Source: a virus
Taxonomy: Duplodnaviria > Caudoviricetes
Virus record (IMG/VR): IMGVR_UViG_3300008262_000001
Reading direction: 5' to 3' (one strand)
Length of the DNA stretch: 64,000 nt
The notes under the pieces were generated by a model, which did not search any database, was not told the DNA's origin, and saw only the letters and a list, made by a program, of their open reading frames with translations. Below are positions 46,321 to 55,019 of the stretch, piece by piece. The translations under genes were made by a program, and so were the position numbers. How positions within the stretch are numbered: the stretch's first letter is position 1; every line of letters begins with the position of its first letter.

Positions 46321-48393
46321 TTATTCCCCAGCAGCCATCATACTTACATCAAGACCTTTTTCTTTCAAGATTTTTTTAACTTGTGGCCAAAGAGTATCAT
46401 CATATAACCATTGCTTAAGTGTGTCACCATCTTTCAAACCCCAAGCATCATTCAAAGCATTTAAATCACCTTGAGTTTTAATTTTCTCTCTGAATAATTT
46501 TTGAACCTGTCCACCTTCGTAAGCTGTATTAATTCCTTTCATATTCATGAGAAGTTCAGAAACCATCTCCTGATATTGGGCATCTGTATATGTCCTTTTC
46601 ATCTTTTCTTCGGTAGCTGCTTGTTTCTGTTTTTCTTTTCCAGTAATTTTTCCTGCTACTGTTCCTTTTCCAACCTCTTTAAGTGAAAATGTTCCTTGAC
46701 CATCTCTGAAAGCAATTTGCCAAGATGATGGATCAGTCTCTTTGCCCTGTGGAATGTTTAGATCTGCATCGAATCTTGTATATCCTGAAACTCCTTTGTT
46801 GAAATTAGAAAAATAAGATGCTGTATAATTTGAATAAAGAAGTAAAGCCTCGTTTGCATCCTCCAAATCTATTTGGACATAAAACGTGTTTCCTGTTGGT
46901 AAAATTTCTACTTTGACTTCCCCACTTCCACCAGCGAAACCACTAAACCATTTCATTGGATTATTTTGAACTTCCGTCTTTAAATAGTCATAAACTTTTT
47001 TAATCTGATCATTGCTTAAGACTTGAACCTCTGTTTCCCCTGAAATTTTATAGGTACCATCTTTGATTTCTTTCAAATACTGCTGACCATACTGAGCAAA
47101 AGCTTTTCTTATAAATTTATTATTGAATTCTCCGCTCTTGTCAAGCTGTATTTTTTTAGCATATTCTGGATCCTTCTCGTTTACATAAACTCTAAAAAAA
47201 TTGCCTTCTTCTTTAGTTTTAAAAGGAGTTGCAGGATTAGCCTCACCTACTGGATCCTTCTTAGCTCCAACTCCTGAAGTTCCGCCACGAGGGACGTTTC
47301 TACCTGACTTAACAGCCTCAACGTCAAATCCCTCGTTTAATTTTTTTTTTATAAAACTATCAAAAGAAACCAATTTCAAATTTGTTCCCAAGGATTCATT
47401 AGTTTCTTTATAATTTAATAGAATTGTGTAAAATTCTGGCGTTATATTTCCAGTTTTATCATTCTCGAGCTCTTTGTAGCTCTTTCTCAATCCATTCTTA
47501 ACATCTTTAATAACATTAGCAGTATTAGCTCTTAATGTAGAACTTACTTTTGGGTAGCTTGCATAAACCTTACTCCAATCACTAGTTCCACTTACTGCAT
47601 CATATTTTTTGAACTTCTCATAGATTAATTTTTTAACCTCTTTAACTACCTCACCGTCTTTTCCTGAATAAGCTTCACCACTCCTTTCTTTAATTGTTGA
47701 AGTTAATCCACCTTGGATAGTTGATCCTGTTGATCCTGTTGCTCCAGATGCTCCTGTAGATCCACTTGCAAGTTGTTGTGCTGCAAGTCTCATTGTATCG
47801 AGAACCTTTACCATTTCATTCTTAGCATCAGAAAATAAAGTTTCAGCGTCTTGCAGCGGTTTTGTAATTGTTGGATATTCAATATCAGCAATCACCTTTT
47901 CTGACTCTTTCGCCCACTCATCACGATAACTTTGTGATGCTTCAGTGAAATCAGTATATAGATCAGAATAGTTATTTCTGAAATTGTTTATCAAAGCTAA
48001 ATCTTTAGTAACTTCTAAAAATTTACCATCTTTCTCCCTTTGATAAACTGCCTCAGCTTTCAGTTTTGCAACACGATCTATAAGTCTAGTAAAGATAGTG
48101 GTGTATTTCTTTCCAGTTTGAGCACCTGCAAGATTTGAAGCTGGGTTTTGTCTTTGTTGTGCATCGTTATAATCAGCAACTATCGAATTTTTAAGAGCTT
48201 CCAACGAATCAATAAAAGGATTCAATTTGAAATCTTTTTCATCGTCCTGGAATTTGTCTTGTCTTCTTTCTTCGCGTCTTTCTGCTCTATCCTCTTTTCT
48301 TTGCTTACTATCTCTTCTTTCCTCCAGATTCATGTTATATGAATCACTTTTCATACTTTCGATTAAGCGAGAGAAATTGTTACTAAGTGCCAT
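46321..48393 (-). CDS. Multidomain putative internal/ejected virion protein
   Basis: Coiled-coil N-terminus, G-x-T linker, peptidoglycan-binding-like segment, internal SFDSFIKKKLNE motif, C-terminal helical (annexin-like) domain. Confidence 0.6.
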   Translation of the reverse strand: MALSNNFSRLIESMKSDSYNMNLEERRDSKQRKEDRAERREERRQDKFQDDEKDFKLNPFIDSLEALKNSIVADYNDAQQRQNPASNLAGAQTGKKYTTIFTRLIDRVAKLKAEAVYQREKDGKFLEVTKDLALINNFRNNYSDLYTDFTEASQSYRDEWAKESEKVIADIEYPTITKPLQDAETLFSDAKNEMVKVLDTMRLAAQQLASGSTGASGATGSTGSTIQGGLTSTIKERSGEAYSGKDGEVVKEVKKLIYEKFKKYDAVSGTSDWSKVYASYPKVSSTLRANTANVIKDVKNGLRKSYKELENDKTGNITPEFYTILLNYKETNESLGTNLKLVSFDSFIKKKLNEGFDVEAVKSGRNVPRGGTSGVGAKKDPVGEANPATPFKTKEEGNFFRVYVNEKDPEYAKKIQLDKSGEFNNKFIRKAFAQYGQQYLKEIKDGTYKISGETEVQVLSNDQIKKVYDYLKTEVQNNPMKWFSGFAGGSGEVKVEILPTGNTFYVQIDLEDANEALLLYSNYTASYFSNFNKGVSGYTRFDADLNIPQGKETDPSSWQIAFRDGQGTFSLKEVGKGTVAGKITGKEKQKQAATEEKMKRTYTDAQYQEMVSELLMNMKGINTAYEGGQVQKLFREKIKTQGDLNALNDAWGLKDGDTLKQWLYDDTLWPQVKKILKEKGLDVSMMAAGE

Positions 48394-48411
48394 TTTATTG
48401 TATTTTTTATT

Positions 48412-48930
48412 TTAAATCTGTGAAGTTTTTGATTTCCAATCCTCGATAAACTTTGCATTGAATGCGTTAATTTGTTCGATTACGCTTGCTGTAATAGCTG
48501 GATCGTTGGTAAAATCTCCAGATTCTGCTTGTAAAGCTTCATAAGCCCTAGCAATTTGTTCAAATCCCTTTGAGACTTTATCAAAAACACTTGCATAAAG
48601 CTCCTTGTTTTTAGAAGCTGCAGCTTCAGTTTTAGCTTTGCTCCAAAGCTCTTCTGCTGTTTTAATTACATCTCCAAGTCTTGTTTGCGGAGGTAATGGA
48701 GTAGTAGCTGCTTGGATGAAAAGAGGAAAAACCTTAGCTTTAACATCGTCTGGTATAGTTAAAAAGAAATGTTGAACATTAGATGCTAATGTTGAAAAGA
48801 TTCTTTTAGCGTAATCTTCCACTTTATCAGCACTCATAGTTGCTTCATTAAGTCTAACATATTGATGCTTTTTAGCCTGTTCTGAAAGAGATTCAAAAAC
48901 AGGGTTGTAAGGTAAATAATTATTCCTCAT
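48412..48930 (-). CDS. Putative internal head protein
   Basis: Helical; VFESLSE and RLNE|A candidate cleavage motifs; GATATATA upstream. Confidence 0.55.
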   Translation of the reverse strand: MRNNYLPYNPVFESLSEQAKKHQYVRLNEATMSADKVEDYAKRIFSTLASNVQHFFLTIPDDVKAKVFPLFIQAATTPLPPQTRLGDVIKTAEELWSKAKTEAAASKNKELYASVFDKVSKGFEQIARAYEALQAESGDFTNDPAITASVIEQINAFNAKFIEDWKSKTSQI

Positions 48931-48948
48931 TTTTAATTTTTATTATTG

Positions 48949-48956
48949 TATATATC
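48949..48956 (-). promoter_or_regulatory. GATATATA
   Basis: Intergenic, 18 nt upstream of ATG 48930. Confidence 0.65.
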
Positions 48957-48961
48957 TGTTT

Positions 48962-49243
48962 TTATCCAAGAGATTCTATCTTCTTAACTGCCACAGATTT
49001 TTTCTGCAACTCAGCAACTTTTTTCTGAGTTTCTAATGCTTGTTGTTGTAGGGAATCACTTTTCTTCAAAGTGCCATCTTTTTCTCTTTTAAATAGATTT
49101 GCTATAGCCAAATCAATCTCGCTCAGCTTTTTATCAATTTCTAAGATTTCTTTTTCAGCAGTAGTCTTTACTTGTAGGTTTTTAGCTTTGTCCTGTGCAG
49201 ACTCCTGTTCGTAAATGAATTTTTTAAAACTAGTAATTTTCAT
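48962..49243 (-). CDS. Putative internal head protein
   Basis: Starts MKITSFKKFIYE, followed by coiled coil. Confidence 0.65.
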   Translation of the reverse strand: MKITSFKKFIYEQESAQDKAKNLQVKTTAEKEILEIDKKLSEIDLAIANLFKREKDGTLKKSDSLQQQALETQKKVAELQKKSVAVKKIESLG

Positions 49244-50093
49244 ACTTGAGAGCTTTTATTTTTTTGTCGATCAGGGAAATCTTTGATCTGAGCATTTCAA
49301 ACATATTTTTATAATGTATTCTAATCTTTGCCTCTTCATTTTCCAAACTATCGATAGTCTGTGAATCTGCAAATTTTTTAGCTTGCTTGAGTTCTTTTCT
49401 GATTTCTTCTATCTGCATCTTACTCCTTATCTCAACATCGAACTTAAAATCCCTAAGCTTGTCTAATAAAGATTTTAATTCCTTTTCATCGTATCCATCT
49501 ATTATAGACTGGGCTTCTGAATTTGTAGAATTCAAAAAAGGTGCAATTTCTTCAGGAATTTCTGTAGTGTAATTTTCAACAGATTGTCCTTTTCCCATTA
49601 AATCTTCAAAATAGCTAGATTTCTTGTTTGCATCTTTTACCAATGAATCAAACTGAGCTGCAATTAAATTGAGATCTCCAGAGGATTTATATTTGTTAAG
49701 TCCTTTAAGTAATTTCTCTGTACTTTCAGCTTCTATTTTTGCTACTTCTGCACTGAAGTAAGCTTGAAGTTTAGGATTTTTTTCTATTTGGATTTCAGCT
49801 TCTTTTAAAAGTGCATTTATTTCTTGCATTTTCAAATTAGCATAAACTCTAGCTTGTCTTTCCAAATTAGAAATTAAAAATCTGTATTCCGGAGTGTTCT
49901 CCTTAGGAATAACAGATATTTCTTTTTCAATCGTAATCCGGTTGTCTATCTCTTCAGACTTAGCCTTTTTAATCTGTTTTAAAAGAGAATCAATTTTTCC
50001 TTTTTTTGTTTTAAAAATGTCGGAAATCCCTTTAAAAACTGAAGACAATACACCTTCATTGATAGAAAAACTTTCTAATCTTTTTAGTTTCAT
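49230..50093 (-). CDS. Putative internal head protein
   Basis: Starts MKLKRLESFSINE|GVLSSVFKGISDIF; coiled coil. Confidence 0.65.
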   Translation of the reverse strand: MKLKRLESFSINEGVLSSVFKGISDIFKTKKGKIDSLLKQIKKAKSEEIDNRITIEKEISVIPKENTPEYRFLISNLERQARVYANLKMQEINALLKEAEIQIEKNPKLQAYFSAEVAKIEAESTEKLLKGLNKYKSSGDLNLIAAQFDSLVKDANKKSSYFEDLMGKGQSVENYTTEIPEEIAPFLNSTNSEAQSIIDGYDEKELKSLLDKLRDFKFDVEIRSKMQIEEIRKELKQAKKFADSQTIDSLENEEAKIRIHYKNMFEMLRSKISLIDKKIKALKYENY

Positions 50094-51070
50094 TTTATCT
50101 TGGTTTCCTCTTTTGCTAACACATCTAAAAGTTCTTCGCAGTCCTTATAAATGCTGTAGATATCCTTTTGCTTGCCTTCTGAATATTTATCAAACTCAGA
50201 CTTGTGTACTTCGTCTTCTACCTTTCTTTGTAGTTTTTCGATATCCCTTCTTTTAGAAAAATACCCACCTACACTATTTTTAATAGCTTCAAACTCCTCA
50301 CTCAAAGATTTCTCTGGTTCATCTTTAAATTCTTTTCTTGACTTTGTAGTAGTTCCAGTAGAAGCTGCAGGAGTGTTGGTTAATGAATTAACCTCTTTTT
50401 CTGCTTTAACTTTAGCATCCTCTGCTTGTTTTTTTGCACTCTCAACACTAACCCCAAAGAAATCTTGTAGATCTTTAGATCTAGTCTTACTCTTTGCAGT
50501 TATTGCTTTGATCTTTTCGTATCTGTCATTTCTCGTTTCTAAAACATCTGTTGCTCTTTGAGCGTTGAAATACTTTTTCTTTCTTTTGTTATCTCCAGTA
50601 AGGTCTTTAATCTTCTGCTCCAAAACATCAAATATTTCCTCGTGCATTTTGTTCAATTCTTTCATTCTCATATTAAGAGAATTTCTATAATTGACTAGAT
50701 CCTTACTCAACGTTTGGTAGTTGGGATTATTTGGATCATTATCCAATGCCTTTTGATCTTGTAAGGATCTATAAAACTCATCGTAAATTTGGTATTCCTC
50801 TGAATTAAATTTAAGCTCCTGTTCTTTCATTTGGGTCAGAACAGTCTTGATTTTTGAAATATCTCCGCCGAAAGCCCCACCTAAAAAATTTGCTATAGTG
50901 TCACCTAAACCCTCATTCAGAGAATTCAGTGCTACTAATATTTGTCCCTCTGACATCTGCGAAAAATCTAAATCTTTCTTTAGTAAATCATAGGTTTTTC
51001 TTATGTCCCTATCATTCTCCAAAAGATAGTTCTTAGCTTTTTGGAATTGGTTAATATTTTCAAATAACAT
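50090..51070 (-). CDS. Putative internal head protein
   Basis: LLE and SLNE|GLGDTIANFLGGAF motifs; coiled coil; follows the capsid gene with its own GATATATA. Confidence 0.6.
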   Translation of the reverse strand: MLFENINQFQKAKNYLLENDRDIRKTYDLLKKDLDFSQMSEGQILVALNSLNEGLGDTIANFLGGAFGGDISKIKTVLTQMKEQELKFNSEEYQIYDEFYRSLQDQKALDNDPNNPNYQTLSKDLVNYRNSLNMRMKELNKMHEEIFDVLEQKIKDLTGDNKRKKKYFNAQRATDVLETRNDRYEKIKAITAKSKTRSKDLQDFFGVSVESAKKQAEDAKVKAEKEVNSLTNTPAASTGTTTKSRKEFKDEPEKSLSEEFEAIKNSVGGYFSKRRDIEKLQRKVEDEVHKSEFDKYSEGKQKDIYSIYKDCEELLDVLAKEETKIK

Positions 51071-51086
51071 GAGTTTGTCTTTTCCT

Positions 51087-51094
51087 TATATATC
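51087..51094 (-). promoter_or_regulatory. GATATATA (TTCAAGATATATAA context)
   Basis: After the capsid terminator, 16 nt upstream of ATG 51070. Confidence 0.7.
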
Positions 51095-51109
51095 TTGAAA
51101 TCCAATTTA

Positions 51110-51144
51110 AAAGCAAAAAGAAAAGGTCCCTTTTGGGACCTTTT
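51110..51144 (-). terminator. Rho-independent terminator of the major capsid gene
   Basis: AAAAGGTCCC (51121-51130), 4-nt loop, GGGACCTTTT (51135-51144); U-rich tract on the minus strand; 19 nt after the capsid stop. Confidence 0.85.
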
Positions 51145-51163
51145 CAGTTATATCGATTACCTA

Positions 51164-52936
51164 TTAGATAATAGCAGTGTTTGTTCCAGCGTTAACGTGG
51201 AAGCAGATGTACATTGTTTCTGGAAGGTGACCAGCTTCAACAAGAGCGTATCTTGATTTAACTGCGATCTTCGGTGACATTGTACCTTCAGAGATTGTCT
51301 GAATAGATTCAGCCATCATGTAAGGCATGAACTTCATACCTGGCTCATCATCAGCACCTTTTCTACCAACTAATACTCTTGTATCACTGAACTGCATGTT
51401 CTGATCAACATATACAGTCATACCAGCAAGTGAACCTACTGGGTAAAGTGTACCGTTGTTCTGAGTAAGAGTGTTAGTAAACGGAGCGAATGTGAACTGA
51501 CTGATGTCTTGTAAAGCAGACGCGATTTGTGAGTTAGTAACGATGAAGTTAGCAGGACCTCTACGACCTCTGTTAGCAACTACGTTAGCAGCAGCTAAAA
51601 TACGGCTGTAAAGTCTTCTTTGAACTGTTGATAAGTTCTCAAAAGTACCTGAAGCAGGACCAGCAACTGAACCTGGCTTAGCAGAACCTGTGATAGCAAG
51701 ACCCATTTTACCTACGTAATCTGGAACTGCATAACCTGAAGCAGCACCACCAATTACCAAGTTAAGGTTAAGGTTAGTTTGCTCAGTTACTAAGAACTGT
51801 GAGTGGTTTGACCAGCCAAGAGCAAAACCTCTTGATAGAATGTGCTTGTTAATAGCCTGAGATACCTCGTTAACAAGAGCGTTTTCGATCATAGAAACTA
51901 CGTCGATACCGAACTGTTTGTTAAGGTCTTGGATTTGCTCAGTTGTAACAGAAGCAGCAACTTGGAAAGTACCAGCTTCTACAAACTTAGTGAATGTAGA
52001 AAGACCAAGTGACTTGTAATAAGTTGATTCTGCAACACCTCTTAACATTGGATCGTAGTTTTGTGTGCCATCTACGTATGGACCTTGCCAGTTATTAGTG
52101 TTAGATTGACCAGCACCAGAGAAACCTTGAATGTGATCTTCTAATGTCTTAACCAATACTGCGTTACCACCGGAGAAAGCAAGAACGTTACCAGTTGTAG
52201 TCATAGTTTGGTCGTTAGCCTGGCTTGATGCTAAACGAATTTCAGAGTTAGCAGTAACTGTTGTGGCAATAGAATCACCAGAAGTTAATGCAGTGATCTG
52301 GAAAATTGGGAAACCGTCAATACGTGAGTATCCAACAAATTTACCTTTAGCAGAATCGGATGATGCAGTAGCTCCAGTAACTAAGATGATGTAGTAACTA
52401 CCAACTGTTAGAGTACCAAATACAGGAGAAGCAACAGCGATAGGCACCTTAATCATATCAGGTGTGTTTGCAGTAAAGTTGGTAGTAGTATCTGTTGAAG
52501 TACCAGACAAAGTACCACCTGCATACACATAGTCAAGATAAGAAAGTACCCCTGTTGGTCCGCTCATTGGAATAACAGGAACAATGTCAAAACCAACGGT
52601 TTTAGCAGCTACCTGAATAGCCAATGGAAGAAGTGAAGGGAACTTATCACCAGAACCTACATAAGGAGTACCAGCGTTGTAAGTGTTGTTGTAGTAAAAA
52701 CCAGCATTACCTGGGCCAGCTGCTGCATTACTACCGGAGTAGTTACCAGGAGGCATGATGGCACCCATACCATTTAAAGCACCGAGAGAGTTGTAAGCTC
52801 CAGCAGATTCGTTAAGTGAGTGGAAGTGGCAATATTTAGAAAGCCATTCTACTTTTGAACGATCAGTCATGCCGGTCTTGCTCTCAATAATGGGAGACCA
52901 TGTTTCGTAGATCTCGTTTTGATTTAAGAGTTGCAT
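51164..52936 (-). CDS. gp23: Major capsid protein, T4 gp23 family
   Basis: PSLLPLAIQVAAKTVGFDIVPVIPMSGPTGVLSYLDYVY, VTTEQIQDL, LVNEVSQAINK, RGRRGPANFIVTNSQIASAL, GSLAGMTVYVD, PYMMA...PKIAVKSRYAL. Confidence 0.93.
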   Translation of the reverse strand: MQLLNQNEIYETWSPIIESKTGMTDRSKVEWLSKYCHFHSLNESAGAYNSLGALNGMGAIMPPGNYSGSNAAAGPGNAGFYYNNTYNAGTPYVGSGDKFPSLLPLAIQVAAKTVGFDIVPVIPMSGPTGVLSYLDYVYAGGTLSGTSTDTTTNFTANTPDMIKVPIAVASPVFGTLTVGSYYIILVTGATASSDSAKGKFVGYSRIDGFPIFQITALTSGDSIATTVTANSEIRLASSQANDQTMTTTGNVLAFSGGNAVLVKTLEDHIQGFSGAGQSNTNNWQGPYVDGTQNYDPMLRGVAESTYYKSLGLSTFTKFVEAGTFQVAASVTTEQIQDLNKQFGIDVVSMIENALVNEVSQAINKHILSRGFALGWSNHSQFLVTEQTNLNLNLVIGGAASGYAVPDYVGKMGLAITGSAKPGSVAGPASGTFENLSTVQRRLYSRILAAANVVANRGRRGPANFIVTNSQIASALQDISQFTFAPFTNTLTQNNGTLYPVGSLAGMTVYVDQNMQFSDTRVLVGRKGADDEPGMKFMPYMMAESIQTISEGTMSPKIAVKSRYALVEAGHLPETMYICFHVNAGTNTAII

Positions 52937-52947
52937 TTTATTAGATC

Positions 52948-54993
52948 TTATTTTTTAAATCTTTTGTCTAATTCAGCTGCGATGTTTGCGATATAGCTGT
53001 TGCTAATTCCGCTGTTCGTAGCATTATTAGGGTTTTGGGACTCGTCTAATCTTTCCAAATTAGCCTGTGGAGCTTGAAATCCTCTAGTTCTCCAGAAGTT
53101 GTTAATCTGATAAGGAGTGTCTAAGTGATAGAATTTACTTTGAGCAACAATTGATGCTTTCTGTGATTCATTCAAAGAGTTCCAAACAGGTACCAAATCT
53201 TGTGGTATCATATCGAGGAATTTTTCTCCAGACTGAGCTTGTTCAGTTAGAGCAGATCCCATAATTTGAACTACGTCCATACCTGAACTGTAATTCTGCT
53301 CATTAAGAGCTTTAACGACCTTTTGTTTTTCGGCCTCGTTCAAAGAGATAAATCCTTTCTTTGTTTGTTCATCAACAAGCTTTAAGAAAGAATATTTATT
53401 TTCGTTTACGATTTCTTCAGTTTTGTTCTTGCTAAGTGATTCAATTAATTGATCGACTTTGCCAGAAAGTGAATTGTAATCACCTGAGAAACCAGAAGTT
53501 CTTTTTCCTTTTTCTACTGAATCATTAATTTGTTTAGCCATATCATTACCGGAATTTTTAATTCCTTTGTTATTGATAGACTCGGCCAAATATTGTGAGT
53601 ATTCAATACCAGATTTAACTTTTTCAGCTAAGTATTCTGAGTAGTTAATGTTTCCGTTTACTTTCTCACCAAGGTAATCTGAATAAGAAATGCTCTTATC
53701 TAGATTCTCAGCAAGATAATCAGAATAAGAGATGTTCTTATCCAATTTCTCTGCGAGATATTCTGAGTAAGAAATGTTTCTGTCAACGTTTTCAGCCAAG
53801 TATTCAGCATAAGAGATGTTCTTGTCCAAGTTCTCAGCAAGATACTCAGAATAAGAAATGTTCTTATCTAAGTTTTCAGCAAGATACTCTGAATAGGAAA
53901 TGTTCTTATCTAAATTCTCAGCGATATATTTGCTGTAAGCAATATTGTTGTCAAGATTCTCTGCAATATATTCTGAATAAGAAATGTTGCCATCTACGTG
54001 CTCTGCTAAGTATTTAGCATATGAAATAGCTTTGTCAAGATTTTCAGCAAGATACTTATTATAAGAAATAGAACCTTCTAAATTCTCTGCTAAGTAATCA
54101 CCAAAGTTAATTGCAGATTCTAAGTTCTCTGCAAGATATTCTGAATACTTTTCAAGTCTTTGAATTCTCTCCTCTAATGCTGAATCGTTGTTACTAGAAG
54201 TAGAACCTTTTGAAAAGGATTTCATTTCATTCTTCAAAGAATCCATTTCCTTTTTAAGAATGAGTGAATATTCGTTTAATTCTTCTGCTGTGACAAAGTT
54301 ATTGTCCATATTCTTTGTATTATTTGTATTTTCTAAAAGTTTAGAGATCTTCTCTATATCTTTAATTCTATATATCTGCGTGTTAGAATTTTTTCTCAAT
54401 CCTAAGCTCTCGTTTATATTGGTTAAAGAAGAAACTATTGAACTTTTGATCTCTTCTGCAAAGGAAGTAAAACCTAAGCTTTCGTATAAACTTTCGCTAA
54501 CTCTTTCTAATTGAGCATTTTCAAAACCAGGATCAGCTACTAGATCATAAGTAAAGATCTTCTTGATCTCTACTTTTTTATTTTCTTTTACGTTACCTGC
54601 TGCTCTAGAAGAAATAGAAATAGGAATACCTGCATCAACAAGATTCTGTGCAATTTTACCGGCTGGAGTATCAAGAAGCTTAACCTTGATCTTTACACAT
54701 CTGTCTTTATTATCATAATCTAAATCTGTGATAATGTGAGATATGTTCTTTAAAGAAACATCGAATTCTTTTGGGTGATCTAATTCACCAACCAAACGAT
54801 TTTGTTCAATCTTCTTTTTCAAATAATCAAGATGTGGCAAATATTCCTTCTCCTCGTAAATTCTATGATTAGAATTCTCAATTCCGAAAACTGCTGCTAC
54901 ACCTTCTAGAAAATATTCTCCTCCTTCTTTCTTACTTGAAAGATTTACAGTTGATTTTTCTAGAATCAGTACGTAATCTTGGTTTTTTTCCAT
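52948..54993 (-). CDS. gp21: Prohead core protease (gp21-like) fused to a repeat-rich scaffold (gp22-like)
   Basis: LEGVAAVFGIENSNHRIY, LVGELDHP, NISHII, LLDTPAGKI, GIPISISSRAAG, YDLVADPGF, followed by YSEYLAENLDKNIS repeats. Confidence 0.88.
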   Translation of the reverse strand: MEKNQDYVLILEKSTVNLSSKKEGGEYFLEGVAAVFGIENSNHRIYEEKEYLPHLDYLKKKIEQNRLVGELDHPKEFDVSLKNISHIITDLDYDNKDRCVKIKVKLLDTPAGKIAQNLVDAGIPISISSRAAGNVKENKKVEIKKIFTYDLVADPGFENAQLERVSESLYESLGFTSFAEEIKSSIVSSLTNINESLGLRKNSNTQIYRIKDIEKISKLLENTNNTKNMDNNFVTAEELNEYSLILKKEMDSLKNEMKSFSKGSTSSNNDSALEERIQRLEKYSEYLAENLESAINFGDYLAENLEGSISYNKYLAENLDKAISYAKYLAEHVDGNISYSEYIAENLDNNIAYSKYIAENLDKNISYSEYLAENLDKNISYSEYLAENLDKNISYAEYLAENVDRNISYSEYLAEKLDKNISYSDYLAENLDKSISYSDYLGEKVNGNINYSEYLAEKVKSGIEYSQYLAESINNKGIKNSGNDMAKQINDSVEKGKRTSGFSGDYNSLSGKVDQLIESLSKNKTEEIVNENKYSFLKLVDEQTKKGFISLNEAEKQKVVKALNEQNYSSGMDVVQIMGSALTEQAQSGEKFLDMIPQDLVPVWNSLNESQKASIVAQSKFYHLDTPYQINNFWRTRGFQAPQANLERLDESQNPNNATNSGISNSYIANIAAELDKRFKK
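53560..54147 (-). repeat. 14 tandem 14-aa (42-nt) repeats, consensus YSEYLAENLDKNIS
   Basis: Counted from YSEYLAENLESAIN to YSQYLAESINNKG. Confidence 0.92.
54369..54376 (-). promoter_or_regulatory. GATATATA inside the protease gene, upstream of in-frame Met229
   Basis: 59 nt upstream of the in-frame ATG at 54309. Confidence 0.45.
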
Positions 54994-55006
54994 CCTTTTA
55001 TTTTTT

Positions 55007-55014
55007 TATATATC
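55007..55014 (-). promoter_or_regulatory. GATATATA (TTCAAGATATATAA context) upstream of the protease/capsid operon
   Basis: 13 nt upstream of ATG 54993. Confidence 0.7.
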
Positions 55015-55019
55015 TTGAA

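What the first reader, a model, noticed from the sequence alone, without database searches (positions are those of the whole stretch)
52948..54993. Protease-scaffold fusion with 14 built-in cleavage repeats and a possible nested scaffold-only gene
Seen: a gp21-like protease followed by 14 x YSEYLAENLDKNIS (two heptads each); nearly every repeat contains L/I-A-E. An exact GATATATA lies inside the gene (54369-54376), 59 nt before an in-frame ATG (54309, Met229, MDNNFVTAEELNE) that follows a low-complexity linker and an A-rich leader. Known: T4 encodes gp21 and gp22 separately and gp21 cleaves after (I/L)-x-E, whereas lambda (C/Nu3) and herpesviruses nest the scaffold in-frame in the protease gene. 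Inference: a T4-type head using a nested strategy, giving a 681-aa fusion plus an abundant 453-aa scaffold that is cut at every repeat.
Basis: partly seen in the sequence, partly recalled or inferred. Interest (0 to 1): 0.7.

Follow-up and report, generated by a model that had tools for sequence, protein, structure and literature searches.

The report
Protease-scaffold gene with internal promoter
A giant freshwater phage fuses its capsid-maturation protease to a repeat-built scaffold protein, and a promoter-like signal plus a start codon kept inside that gene across many relatives suggest it also makes the scaffold alone, as herpesviruses do.

Summary
ORF 52948-54993 (-) encodes 681 aa. It has a T4 gp21-type protease domain, a linker, 14 in-register 14-aa units that each carry [LI]-[AG]-E, and a helical C-terminal domain. 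The gp23-like capsid gene follows after 11 nt.

- **Internal motif:** in 50 non-redundant relatives (median 64% nt identity) the internal GATATATA is the most conserved 8-mer of the gene (100%; next 72%). The flanking amino acids vary.
- **Codons:** of 145 invariant degenerate codon columns, only I207 (ATA) and Y208 (TAT) keep one codon throughout.
- **Motif elsewhere:** the same 8-mer lies 1-56 nt before gene starts. Relatives encode a gp55-like late sigma.
- **Met229:** invariant in 86/86 homologs with DNA, and predicted to lie in a disordered stretch.
- **Other clades:** they carry the motif at different places before the same Met.
- **Split relative:** its separate scaffold gene starts at that Met with the motif 18 nt upstream.

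No transcript or protein evidence was obtained. Cleavage at every repeat is inferred. Repeat number does not scale with genome size. This is a new variant of the known nested protease/scaffold arrangement (lambda C/Nu3, herpesvirus UL26/UL26.5). Other notes of this scan flagged the same stretch.

The parts
55007..55014 (-). Upstream GATATATA gene-start (late-promoter-like) motif, 13 nt before the ATG of the fusion gene
   Evidence: An exact copy sits upstream of the homologous gene in all 70 relatives of 53% identity or more.
52948..54993 (-). 681-aa protease-scaffold fusion ORF (P0001), stop codon included
   Evidence: The fused form is conserved in 86 full-length homologs and in at least 114 of the best 150 cluster representatives.
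54424..54993 (-). gp21/assemblin-fold serine protease domain (about aa 1-190); H73 and S128 align with the T4 gp21 His and Ser
   Evidence: Pfam S77 and S80. BLASTP against T4 gp21 at E 8e-10. Foldseek hit to 5JBL at E 4e-8, then herpesvirus proteases. H73, S128 and D150/D154 are invariant.
54406..54417 (-). I193-N194-E195|S196: candidate autocleavage site at the protease/scaffold junction
   Evidence: N194 and E195 are invariant in 86/86. The same [LIV]-N-E motif lies within the first 55 residues of six head-module proteins, including the conserved HSLNE|S of the capsid protein. Cleavage itself is inferred.
54369..54376 (-). Internal GATATATA, spanning the last base of codon 206, I207 (ATA), Y208 (TAT) and the first base of codon 209: candidate internal late promoter
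   Evidence: It is the most conserved 8-mer of the gene: 100% of 50 representatives, next 72%. I207 and Y208 are the only 2 of 145 invariant degenerate columns with a single codon. ATA is only 19% of other Ile codons.
54307..54309 (-). ATG of Met229: candidate start codon of the nested scaffold-only product
   Evidence: Invariant in 86/86. It is the first ATG after the motif in 42/50 representatives. It lies in a low-confidence segment without helix or strand, aa 222-233. It is the start codon of the separate scaffold gene in L100.
52948..54309 (-). Nested in-frame ORF for a 453-aa scaffold-only protein (Met229 to the stop)
   Evidence: Inferred from the internal motif and Met229. Stand-alone homologs exist: L100 with 409 aa and L124 with 403 aa.
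53560..54147 (-). 14 x 14-aa repeats (aa 283-478), consensus Y-S-E-Y-L-A-E-N-L-D-K-N-I-S, each with [LI]-[AG]-E
   Evidence: Predicted helical at low confidence. Hydrophobic period of 3.5 residues; about 29 nm if it is one helix.
52951..53475 (-). C-terminal part of the fusion (aa 507-681): helical domain aa 507-635 at pLDDT about 70, then a low-confidence tail. Presumed shell-binding or co-assembly end shared by both products
   Evidence: Conserved residues include P597, W604, Y628, Q629, F633, W634 and R637. The function is inferred.
51164..52936 (-). gp23-like major capsid protein gene, 11 nt downstream, with no promoter motif of its own
   Evidence: Pfam Gp23 at E 1.5e-39. No motif in the 8-33 nt spacer in any of the 67 of 70 relatives of 53% identity or more where the spacer could be read. 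The huge-phage relatives have their own motif in a 47-82 nt spacer.

Best explanation
The gene encodes a T4 gp21-type (herpesvirus assemblin fold) prohead protease fused in frame to a helical scaffold, and it most likely gives two products.

Proposed mechanism:
1. Late in infection, RNA polymerase carrying a phage gp55-like sigma starts at GATATATA motifs.
2. The motif before the gene (55007-55014) gives mRNA for the 681-aa fusion and for the capsid protein downstream.
3. The conserved copy inside the ORF (54369-54376) gives a shorter mRNA. Its first AUG is Met229 (54309), so it yields a 453-aa scaffold-only protein plus more capsid-protein message.
4. Both proteins share the repeat region and the C-terminal domain. 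They therefore co-assemble into the prohead core, and the fusion carries a minority of protease inside.
5. After the shell closes, the protease cuts after Glu in (L/I/V)-x-E. The proposed sites are the junction INE195|S196, the capsid-protein propeptide LNE|S, the propeptides of neighbouring head proteins, and once in each of the 14 repeat units. This reduces about 29 nm of helix to short peptides that can leave the head.

Shown here: the domain identities, the repeats, the nucleotide-level conservation of the motif, the conservation of the Met, the gene-start association of the motif, and the split and relocated forms in relatives.

Inferred: transcription from the internal motif, initiation at Met229, the relative amounts of the two products, and every cleavage.
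For: - Protease identity.
- Fusion conserved and always next to the capsid gene.
- Internal motif is the top-conserved 8-mer (100% against 72%) in 50 representatives with median 64% nt identity.
- Residues 206 (K/Q/M/R) and 209 (K/R/N) vary, yet the G before the motif core and the A after it are kept in 75/86 and 70/86. ATA is used at I207 in 75/86 against a 19% background.
- Only I207 and Y208, of 145 invariant degenerate codon columns, show one codon in all representatives.
- The motif marks gene starts. 10 of 11 copies in the window do so. 88 of 88 in 319 kb of related loci do so, against 4.5% of random positions. 60 of 71 in a complete 343.5-kb relative do so.
- Eleven copies in that relative sit exactly 4 nt before an ATG, and A at +5 occurs in 88% of the 52 copies within 30 nt of a start. 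This suggests a fixed transcription start.
- gp55-like sigma in three complete relatives, E 1e-6 to 8e-5.
- In T4, TATAAATA overlaps the stop of gene 21, 27 nt before gene 22.
- Met229 is 86/86, lies in a disordered segment, and is the first ATG after the motif in 42/50.
- In other clades an exact motif lies 30-32 nt before the same Met at a different codon pair (L024, L097, L098, L101), or AATATATA lies 23 nt before it (L126).
- In L100 the protease (217 aa) and scaffold (409 aa) are separate genes. The scaffold starts at the equivalent Met, with AATATATA 18 nt upstream inside the end of the protease gene.
- The capsid gene has no motif of its own wherever the internal motif is exact.
- T4 uses about 580 gp22 per 55-100 gp21 (PMC9958956, PMC5694885). 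A 1:1 fusion alone cannot give that ratio.
Against: - No transcript ends or protein data were obtained.
- The motif-to-Met229 distance (59-71 nt) is longer than at almost all other sites, which are mostly 4-30 nt with a maximum of 56-64 nt.
- The flanks of the internal site score poorly against gene-proximal sites: -1.3 against a median of 6.3. Coding constraint may explain this.
- The start-codon context of Met229 is only in the top 15% of internal Mets, so that test is inconclusive.
- The I-Y residues are also conserved in clades that lack the DNA motif, so part of the conservation is at protein level.
- Some clades have no motif before the Met at all: L025, L027, L089-L092, L094, L002.
- In the broader family about 14% of fusion representatives have no Met near that position.
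- A complete relative has about 10 other intragenic copies of the motif, so single occurrences can be chance.
- The L100 split could be an assembly frameshift in an A6 run.
Confidence: 0.68

Rival explanations
1. The internal motif is a real late promoter, but its job is to raise transcription of the capsid-protein gene, which has no promoter of its own. Met229 is not used to any important extent. Free scaffold arises only by autocleavage of the fusion at INE195|S196.
For: - The capsid gene lacks a motif in every readable relative that has the exact internal motif, whereas huge-phage relatives with their own capsid-gene motif have only an imperfect internal one.
- T4 likewise embeds a late promoter for gene 23 inside gene 22.
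- The 59-71 nt leader is atypically long, and the Met229 start context is unremarkable.
- The junction N194-E195 is invariant.
Against: - Met229 is invariant in 86/86 inside a disordered, otherwise variable linker.
- It is the first ATG after the motif in 42/50 representatives.
- In other clades the motif has moved to 30-32 nt before the same Met rather than towards the capsid gene.
- Stand-alone scaffold genes begin at or within 10 codons of that Met.
- A transcript starting there would present Met229 as its first AUG in any case.
Confidence: 0.18
2. The conserved GATATATA inside the gene is some other nucleotide-level signal, not a promoter. Examples would be a rare-codon pause (ATA, AGA) at the domain boundary that aids folding, or a binding site for another factor. 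The scaffold is released only by proteolysis.
For: - The motif sits exactly between the protease domain and the scaffold.
- ATA is a minority Ile codon, 19%.
- The promoter-type flanks are poor.
Against: - The 8-mer is identical to the signal found 1-56 nt before gene starts.
- The flanking codons change (AAG/CAG/ATG/AGG before; AAA/AGA/AAT after) while only the motif bases are kept. This fits an 8-nt DNA word, not codon rarity.
- The motif recurs at other codon pairs before the same Met in other clades.
Confidence: 0.08
3. There is no embedded signal. The motif and the Met are kept for protein reasons (a beta-strand containing I-Y, and a structural Met), and the DNA identity is inheritance plus codon bias.
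For: - I207 and Y208 are invariant even in clades whose codons are ATT TAT or ATC TAC.
- AlphaFold places them in a short strand, aa 205-210.
Against: - Synonymous sites elsewhere are well mixed, with a mean modal-codon share of 0.63. These two columns alone are at 1.00, and they use the minority ATA codon.
- The bases contributed by the variable neighbouring residues are conserved too.
Confidence: 0.04

Closest known systems
Herpesvirus UL26 / UL26.5 (assemblin-scaffold fusion plus a scaffold-only transcript from a promoter inside the ORF)
   Same: - Same protease fold: Foldseek lists HSV, PRV, HCMV, VZV, EBV and KSHV proteases directly after T4 gp21.
- Protease at the N-terminus, fused in frame to the scaffold.
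- A shorter co-terminal product, from its own promoter within the coding sequence, is about 10-fold more abundant. This architecture is conserved across Herpesvirales (PMC11565193).
- Autocleavage between protease and scaffold.
   Different: - Here the internal promoter and the second product are inferred from conservation, not observed.
- The scaffold sequence is unrelated and is built of 14 tandem units.
- The promoter is a bacterial-phage late type.
- The capsid gene lies downstream on the same transcripts.
Phage T4 genes 21 (protease), 22 (scaffold) and 23 (capsid)
   Same: - Homologous protease and capsid protein, in the same gene order.
- An A/T-rich 8-nt late-promoter word lies just before the scaffold start. 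In T4, TATAAATA overlaps the gene 21 stop, 27 nt before gene 22.
- Cleavage after Glu in (L/I)-x-E is the T4 rule from the literature. The capsid protein here keeps an L-N-E site at the equivalent place.
   Different: - T4 has two separate genes; here there is one ORF.
- The scaffold half does not match Pfam T4_CASP (PF25623) and gives hhalign probability 4% against gp22. Only a hexapeptide (EWLAEN against EYLAEN) is alike.
- T4 gp22 has no tandem repeats.
Lambda C / Nu3 (own knowledge; also phage Mu I/Z and P2 gpO)
   Same: A protease gene with the scaffold nested in the same frame at its 3' end, so that both products share a C-terminus.
   Different: - As far as I recall, those proteases are of other families (ClpP/SppA-like or others), not the gp21/assemblin fold.
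- Also from memory, Nu3 is made by internal translation initiation on the same mRNA rather than from a dedicated promoter.
- They have no tandem cleavage-site repeats.
phiKZ gp175 / SPN3US gp245 (MEROPS S80 giant-phage prohead proteases)
   Same: Distant gp21 relatives in jumbo phages. The query also matches Pfam S80. They undergo C-terminal autocleavage after x-x-E motifs (PMC5694885).
   Different: Those enzymes are about 260 aa without a scaffold domain, and no gp22 counterpart has been confirmed in those phages (PMC5694885). Here a 450-aa scaffold is attached.

Membership tests
Peptidase S77 (T4 gp21 prohead protease; herpesvirus assemblin fold) | Sequence match to the family model above the curated threshold | tested here: met
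   PF03420 at 39.9 bits against a cut-off of 27, residues 27-140. BLASTP against T4 gp21 at E 8e-10, 27% identity over 113 aa.
Peptidase S77 (T4 gp21 prohead protease; herpesvirus assemblin fold) | Catalytic His and Ser present at the aligned positions | tested here: met
   H73 in GELDHP aligns with the His of T4 GELNHP. S128 in SSR aligns with the first Ser of T4 SSR, the position that reads Ala in chain 5jbl_A. Both are invariant in the family alignments. The third triad residue was not assigned; D150 and D154 are both invariant.
Peptidase S77 (T4 gp21 prohead protease; herpesvirus assemblin fold) | Fold | tested here: met
   The AlphaFold model of the domain has pLDDT about 80. Foldseek gives 5JBL at E 4e-8 with a target TM-score of 0.67, then herpesvirus proteases.
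Peptidase S77 (T4 gp21 prohead protease; herpesvirus assemblin fold) | Cleaves after Glu in (L/I)-x-E | not testable with these tools
   Indirect evidence only. There are conserved [LIV]-N-E sites near the N-termini of six head-module proteins and at the junction.
T4 gp22 scaffold family (Pfam PF25623 T4_CASP) | Sequence or profile similarity to gp22 | tested here: not met
   T4 gp22 hits PF25623 at 6.8e-89, but residues 196-681 of the query give no hit at E up to 1. hhalign of the family alignment against gp22 gives probability 4%. BLASTP gives E 1.5 or worse.
Nested protease/scaffold gene pair (lambda C/Nu3, herpesvirus UL26/UL26.5 type) | Protease and scaffold in one reading frame, protease N-terminal | tested here: met
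   The arrangement is conserved in 86 homologs.
Nested protease/scaffold gene pair (lambda C/Nu3, herpesvirus UL26/UL26.5 type) | Conserved internal in-frame start codon at the head of the scaffold part | tested here: met
   Met229 is 86/86. In 50%-identity cluster representatives it is 84/114 in the exact column and about 96/114 within a few residues. It is the start codon of the split form L100.
Nested protease/scaffold gene pair (lambda C/Nu3, herpesvirus UL26/UL26.5 type) | Independent expression signal for the short product | tested here: inconclusive
   A promoter-type motif is conserved at nucleotide level and is relocated in other clades. No transcript start could be seen, because the RNA runs were available only as contigs.
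Nested protease/scaffold gene pair (lambda C/Nu3, herpesvirus UL26/UL26.5 type) | Two co-terminal proteins actually made | not testable with these tools
   This needs proteomics or western blots of infected cells or proheads.
T4-type late promoter (gp55-dependent 8-nt A/T-rich word) | Short A/T-rich word at a fixed short distance before late-gene starts, with a gp55-like sigma encoded by the phage | tested here: inconclusive
   Strong gene-start association. A spacing class of exactly 4 nt, and A at +5 in 88% of gene-proximal copies. gp55-like ORFs in three complete relatives. No gp55 homolog was sought in the window's own genome, which is not held, and no transcription data exist.

The most novel reading that the evidence does not exclude
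The herpesvirus way of expressing the capsid-maturation module may not be an animal-virus invention. That module is an assemblin-fold protease fused to the scaffold, plus a promoter inside the ORF that makes scaffold alone. The same layout would be shared with, or ancestral to, a very large group of T4-like jumbo phages. T4's separate genes 21 and 22, with a late promoter at their junction, would then be the split derivative of the same arrangement.
Probability: 0.2. Interest if true: 0.8.

Novelty: new variant of a known kind. Interest (0 to 1): 0.6.

Why it matters
**Stoichiometry.** Head assembly needs far more scaffold than protease; T4 uses about 580 gp22 per 55-100 gp21. Lambda and herpesviruses solve this with nested genes. 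Here a family of at least several hundred sequence clusters, named only 'hypothetical protein' in the databases sampled, appears to use the herpesvirus solution with the herpesvirus-type protease fold, in phages with T4-type capsid genes.

**Evolutionary link.** If confirmed, this ties the expression logic of the maturation module across the phage-herpesvirus lineage, and not only its protein folds.

**Annotation.** It is a clear case where a promoter embedded in coding sequence constrains codons and even neighbouring residues. This is useful for annotating late promoters and nested genes in uncultured jumbo phages.

**Testable model.** The 14 repeats, each with a candidate cleavage site, offer a model of a scaffold built to be cut into pieces of uniform size.

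Tried and rejected
- **RNA evidence.** The one search for sequencing runs found only freshwater metatranscriptomes, kept as contigs, with small shares of the stretch. Laying four of them gave fragmentary cover, mostly of relatives' capsid gene. There were no usable starts, ends or levels, so nothing can be said about an internal transcript.
- **Whole genome of the window.** It is not held. A complete 343.5-kb relative was used instead.
- **Start-codon context model.** The model, built from 48 window genes, discriminates weakly. Met229 ranks 36th of 234 internal Mets, which is inconclusive.
- **gp22 homology of the scaffold half.** Rejected by Pfam, hhalign and BLASTP. PHROGs gave no scaffold family. 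The language-model atlas gave only unnamed clusters below the useful score.
- **Repeat number against genome size.** No trend: 13-14 units in 343-435 kb genomes and in the window's clade, 11-12 units at 635-642 kb, 15 at 735 kb, and 3 strict units at 462 kb.
- **Short 'scaffold-only' database proteins.** P0167, P0175 and P0181 come from contigs that begin or are gapped inside the gene. They are not evidence of split genes. Only L100 and L124 count, and L100 carries a frameshift caveat.
- **bS21-phage paper (PMC9723584).** It describes possibly related freshwater jumbo phages, but its gene order differs and it reports no promoter analysis.
- **Literature.** Searches found no description of a gp21-type protease-scaffold fusion with an internal promoter. 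The library is incomplete, so this is not proof of novelty.
- **Complex prediction.** None was run, because no binding claim depends on it.
Full report
**1. What is there**

The minus-strand ORF 52948-54993 is intact and encodes 681 aa. Its parts are as follows.
- **Protease domain.** Residues 27-140 match Pfam Peptidase_S77, the T4 gp21 family, above the curated threshold. They also match S80 and the PHROG 'head maturation protease'. BLASTP against T4 gp21 gives E 8e-10 and aligns H73 and S128 with the T4 His and Ser. An AlphaFold model built on 34 homologs gives a confident protease domain (pLDDT about 80).
- **Linker.** The model shows a short strand at aa 205-210 and a disordered stretch at aa 222-233.
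- **Helices.** Long helices run from aa 236 to 475, at low confidence.
- **C-terminal domain.** A helical domain spans aa 507-635 at pLDDT about 70.
- **Fold.** Foldseek ranks T4 gp21 (5JBL, E 4e-8) first and herpesvirus proteases next.

The next gene, 11 nt downstream, is a gp23-type major capsid protein. The closest annotated-collection relatives are uncultured huge phages of 462-735 kb. The exact protein occurs on contigs up to 316 kb. RNA runs holding parts of the stretch are from fresh water.

**2. The repeats**

Residues 283-478 are exactly 14 units of 14 aa with no register slip. Y4 and E7 are invariant. Y1, A6 and I13 are each present in 13 of the 14 units. Every unit contains [LI]-[AG]-E, giving 14 sites against 4.6 expected from shuffling. 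The hydrophobic period is 3.5 residues, and the segment would be about 29 nm long as a single helix.

The same unit is present in relatives as distant as 35-40% identity. The number of units does not follow genome size. The scaffold half has no detectable relationship to T4 gp22 or to any PHROG scaffold family.

**3. The motif is a gene-start signal**

- In the window, exact GATATATA occurs 11 times against 3.4 expected. Ten copies lie 4-46 nt before an ORF start.
- In 49 related loci (319 kb), all 88 copies outside the fusion gene that have an ORF downstream lie 1-56 nt before its first ATG. Only 4.5% of random positions do.
- In a complete 343.5-kb relative, 60 of 71 copies lie within 80 nt before a called start.
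- In that relative, eleven copies sit exactly 4 nt before the ATG, and A occurs at +5 in 88% of the 52 copies within 30 nt of a start. This fits a fixed transcription start and some leaderless messages.
- Three complete relatives encode a protein similar to the T4 late sigma gp55.
- In T4 itself the late-promoter word TATAAATA overlaps the stop codon of gene 21, 27 nt before gene 22. Another copy lies inside gene 22 before gene 23.

I therefore read GATATATA as this clade's late promoter. This is an inference, because no transcription data exist.

**4. The internal copy is under nucleotide-level selection**

I collected 86 full-length homologs with DNA, at 35-100% identity. Seventy of them are 53% or more identical to the query, and 50 of those are non-redundant (median pairwise nt identity 0.64).
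- Among these 50, the internal GATATATA is the most conserved 8-mer of the whole 2,043-nt gene. It is present in 100%; the next non-overlapping word reaches 72% and lies in the catalytic core.
- The residues around it vary: 206 is K, Q, M or R, and 209 is K, R or N. Their motif bases are nevertheless kept. ATA is used at I207 although it makes up only 19% of the other Ile codons.
- Of 145 codon columns with an invariant, degenerate amino acid, only I207 and Y208 show a single codon in all 50. The mean modal-codon share is 0.63.

The I-Y pair is also conserved in clades that lack the DNA motif, and it sits in a predicted strand. Protein-level constraint therefore exists as well. It cannot explain the codon choice or the flanking bases.

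**5. Met229**

- It is invariant in 86/86, although it lies in a variable, disordered linker.
- It is the first ATG after the motif in 42 of 50 representatives.
- In the far more diverse 50%-identity cluster representatives, 84 of 114 fusion proteins have Met in that column and about 96 have one within a few residues. It is widespread but not universal.

**6. Independent configurations in other lineages**

- L024, L097 and L098 (41-45% identity) have no motif at the conserved I-Y. They have an exact GATATATA at a second E-I-Y, 31-32 nt before the Met.
- The marine contig L101 has the motif at P-I-Y-K, 30 nt before the Met.
- L126 has AATATATA followed by TATAAATA, 23 nt before it.
- In L100, a 204-kb contig, the order is portal, a 217-aa S77 protease, a 409-aa scaffold, a small ORF, then the capsid gene. 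The scaffold gene starts exactly at the equivalent Met, with that phage's motif (AATATATA) 18 nt upstream inside the end of the protease gene. An A6 run there means the split could be an assembly error, or even a frameshift site.
- L124 has a stand-alone 403-aa scaffold homolog with no protease ORF in the 252 nt upstream.
- Some clades have no recognisable motif before the Met.

**7. Link to the capsid gene**

Wherever the internal motif is exact, the capsid gene follows after 8-33 nt without a motif of its own. This holds in all 67 of the 70 relatives where the spacer could be read. The huge-phage relatives have their own motif in a 47-82 nt spacer and only an imperfect internal site. The internal promoter would therefore feed both the scaffold part and the capsid gene. 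That keeps the rival reading, a promoter that serves only the capsid gene, alive.

**8. Cleavage sites**

- N194 and E195 at the junction ([LIV]-N-E|S) are invariant.
- The capsid protein keeps H-S-L-N-E|S at the position where T4 gp23 is cut.
- Six proteins of the head module carry [LIV]-N-E within their first 55 residues, against one of the other 46 proteins checked.

This fits a gp21-like specificity for Glu preceded by L/I/V two residues earlier. It makes autocleavage at E195 and cutting of each repeat plausible. None of this has been shown.

**9. Weaknesses**

- There is no transcript or protein evidence. The available RNA runs were contigs only.
- The leader to Met229 (59-71 nt) is longer than usual.
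- The promoter flanks of the internal site score poorly.
- The start-context score of Met229 is unremarkable.
- Other intragenic copies of the motif exist in a complete relative, at about the chance level.

**10. Comparison and verdict**

The arrangement works like herpesvirus UL26/UL26.5, whose promoter-within-ORF architecture and roughly 10-fold excess of scaffold transcript are conserved across Herpesvirales (PMC11565193). It also works like lambda C/Nu3 (own knowledge). By homology, the protease and the capsid protein belong with T4 genes 21 and 23. T4 places a late promoter at the 21/22 junction.

I found no description of this fused, internally promoted form for gp21-type proteases. Database copies are named only 'hypothetical protein'. 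The scaffold part has 745 cluster representatives at E of 0.001 or better, and at least 114 of the best 150 are fusions.

I rate this a new variant of a known kind. My confidence is about 0.68 that both an internal transcript and a Met229-initiated scaffold exist. Interest is 0.6.

Noticed in passing
window 42818-42832 (+): GATATATA is followed after exactly 4 nt by ATG at 42830. The listed TTG start at 42806 is therefore probably wrong, and this gene may be leaderless. In a complete relative, 11 of the 60 motif copies within 80 nt of a called start have this same 4-nt spacing, and A at +5 occurs in 88% of the 52 copies within 30 nt.
   Followed up: partly
window 41195-57680: N-termini of genes 41195-41902 (+), 48412-48930, 49230-50093, 50090-51070, 51164-52936 and 55020-57680 (-): Six head-module proteins carry [LIV]-N-E within their first 55 residues, against one of the other 46 proteins checked. 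These look like propeptides removed by the prohead protease, as with the T4 capsid-targeting sequences.
   Followed up: partly
L100:2940-3013 (JGI contig of 204,621 bp): In this relative the protease and scaffold are separate, overlapping ORFs. A -1 shift in an A6 run just before the motif would join them in frame. This could be an assembly error, a true split, or a programmed frameshift giving a minority fusion.
   Followed up: partly
L103, L104, L105 (complete relatives of 343-435 kb): ORFs of 121-148 aa are similar to the T4 late sigma factor gp55 (E 1e-6 to 8e-5 per genome). This suggests that late transcription in this phage group is T4-like.
   Followed up: partly
L099:83-90 and 804-811 (T4 genome): The T4 late-promoter word TATAAATA overlaps the stop codon of gene 21, 27 nt before gene 22. 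It occurs again inside gene 22, 135 nt before gene 23. Embedded late promoters therefore have a precedent in this gene cluster.
   Followed up: yes
L086, L089, L090, L091 (43-44% identity clade): These relatives have no GATATATA-type word before the fusion gene or before the internal Met. They share a different upstream word (GGGT.TAAAATTAT), which suggests another promoter type in that clade.
   Followed up: no
window 54130-54147 (-) against T4 gp22 residues 96-101: The hexapeptide E-Y-L-A-E-N of the repeat resembles E-W-L-A-E-N in T4 gp22. A second weak match (L-N-E-A-E-K-Q-K-V against L-T-E-S-Q-K-E-K-V) follows in the same order. Neither is significant (E 1.5-3.5).
   Followed up: yes
window 57727-57734 (-): This GATATATA lies inside the 3' end of the nucleotidyltransferase-like gene 57673-58428, 46 nt before the start of the 886-aa gene. 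It is another promoter-like word embedded in coding sequence in the same cluster.
   Followed up: no
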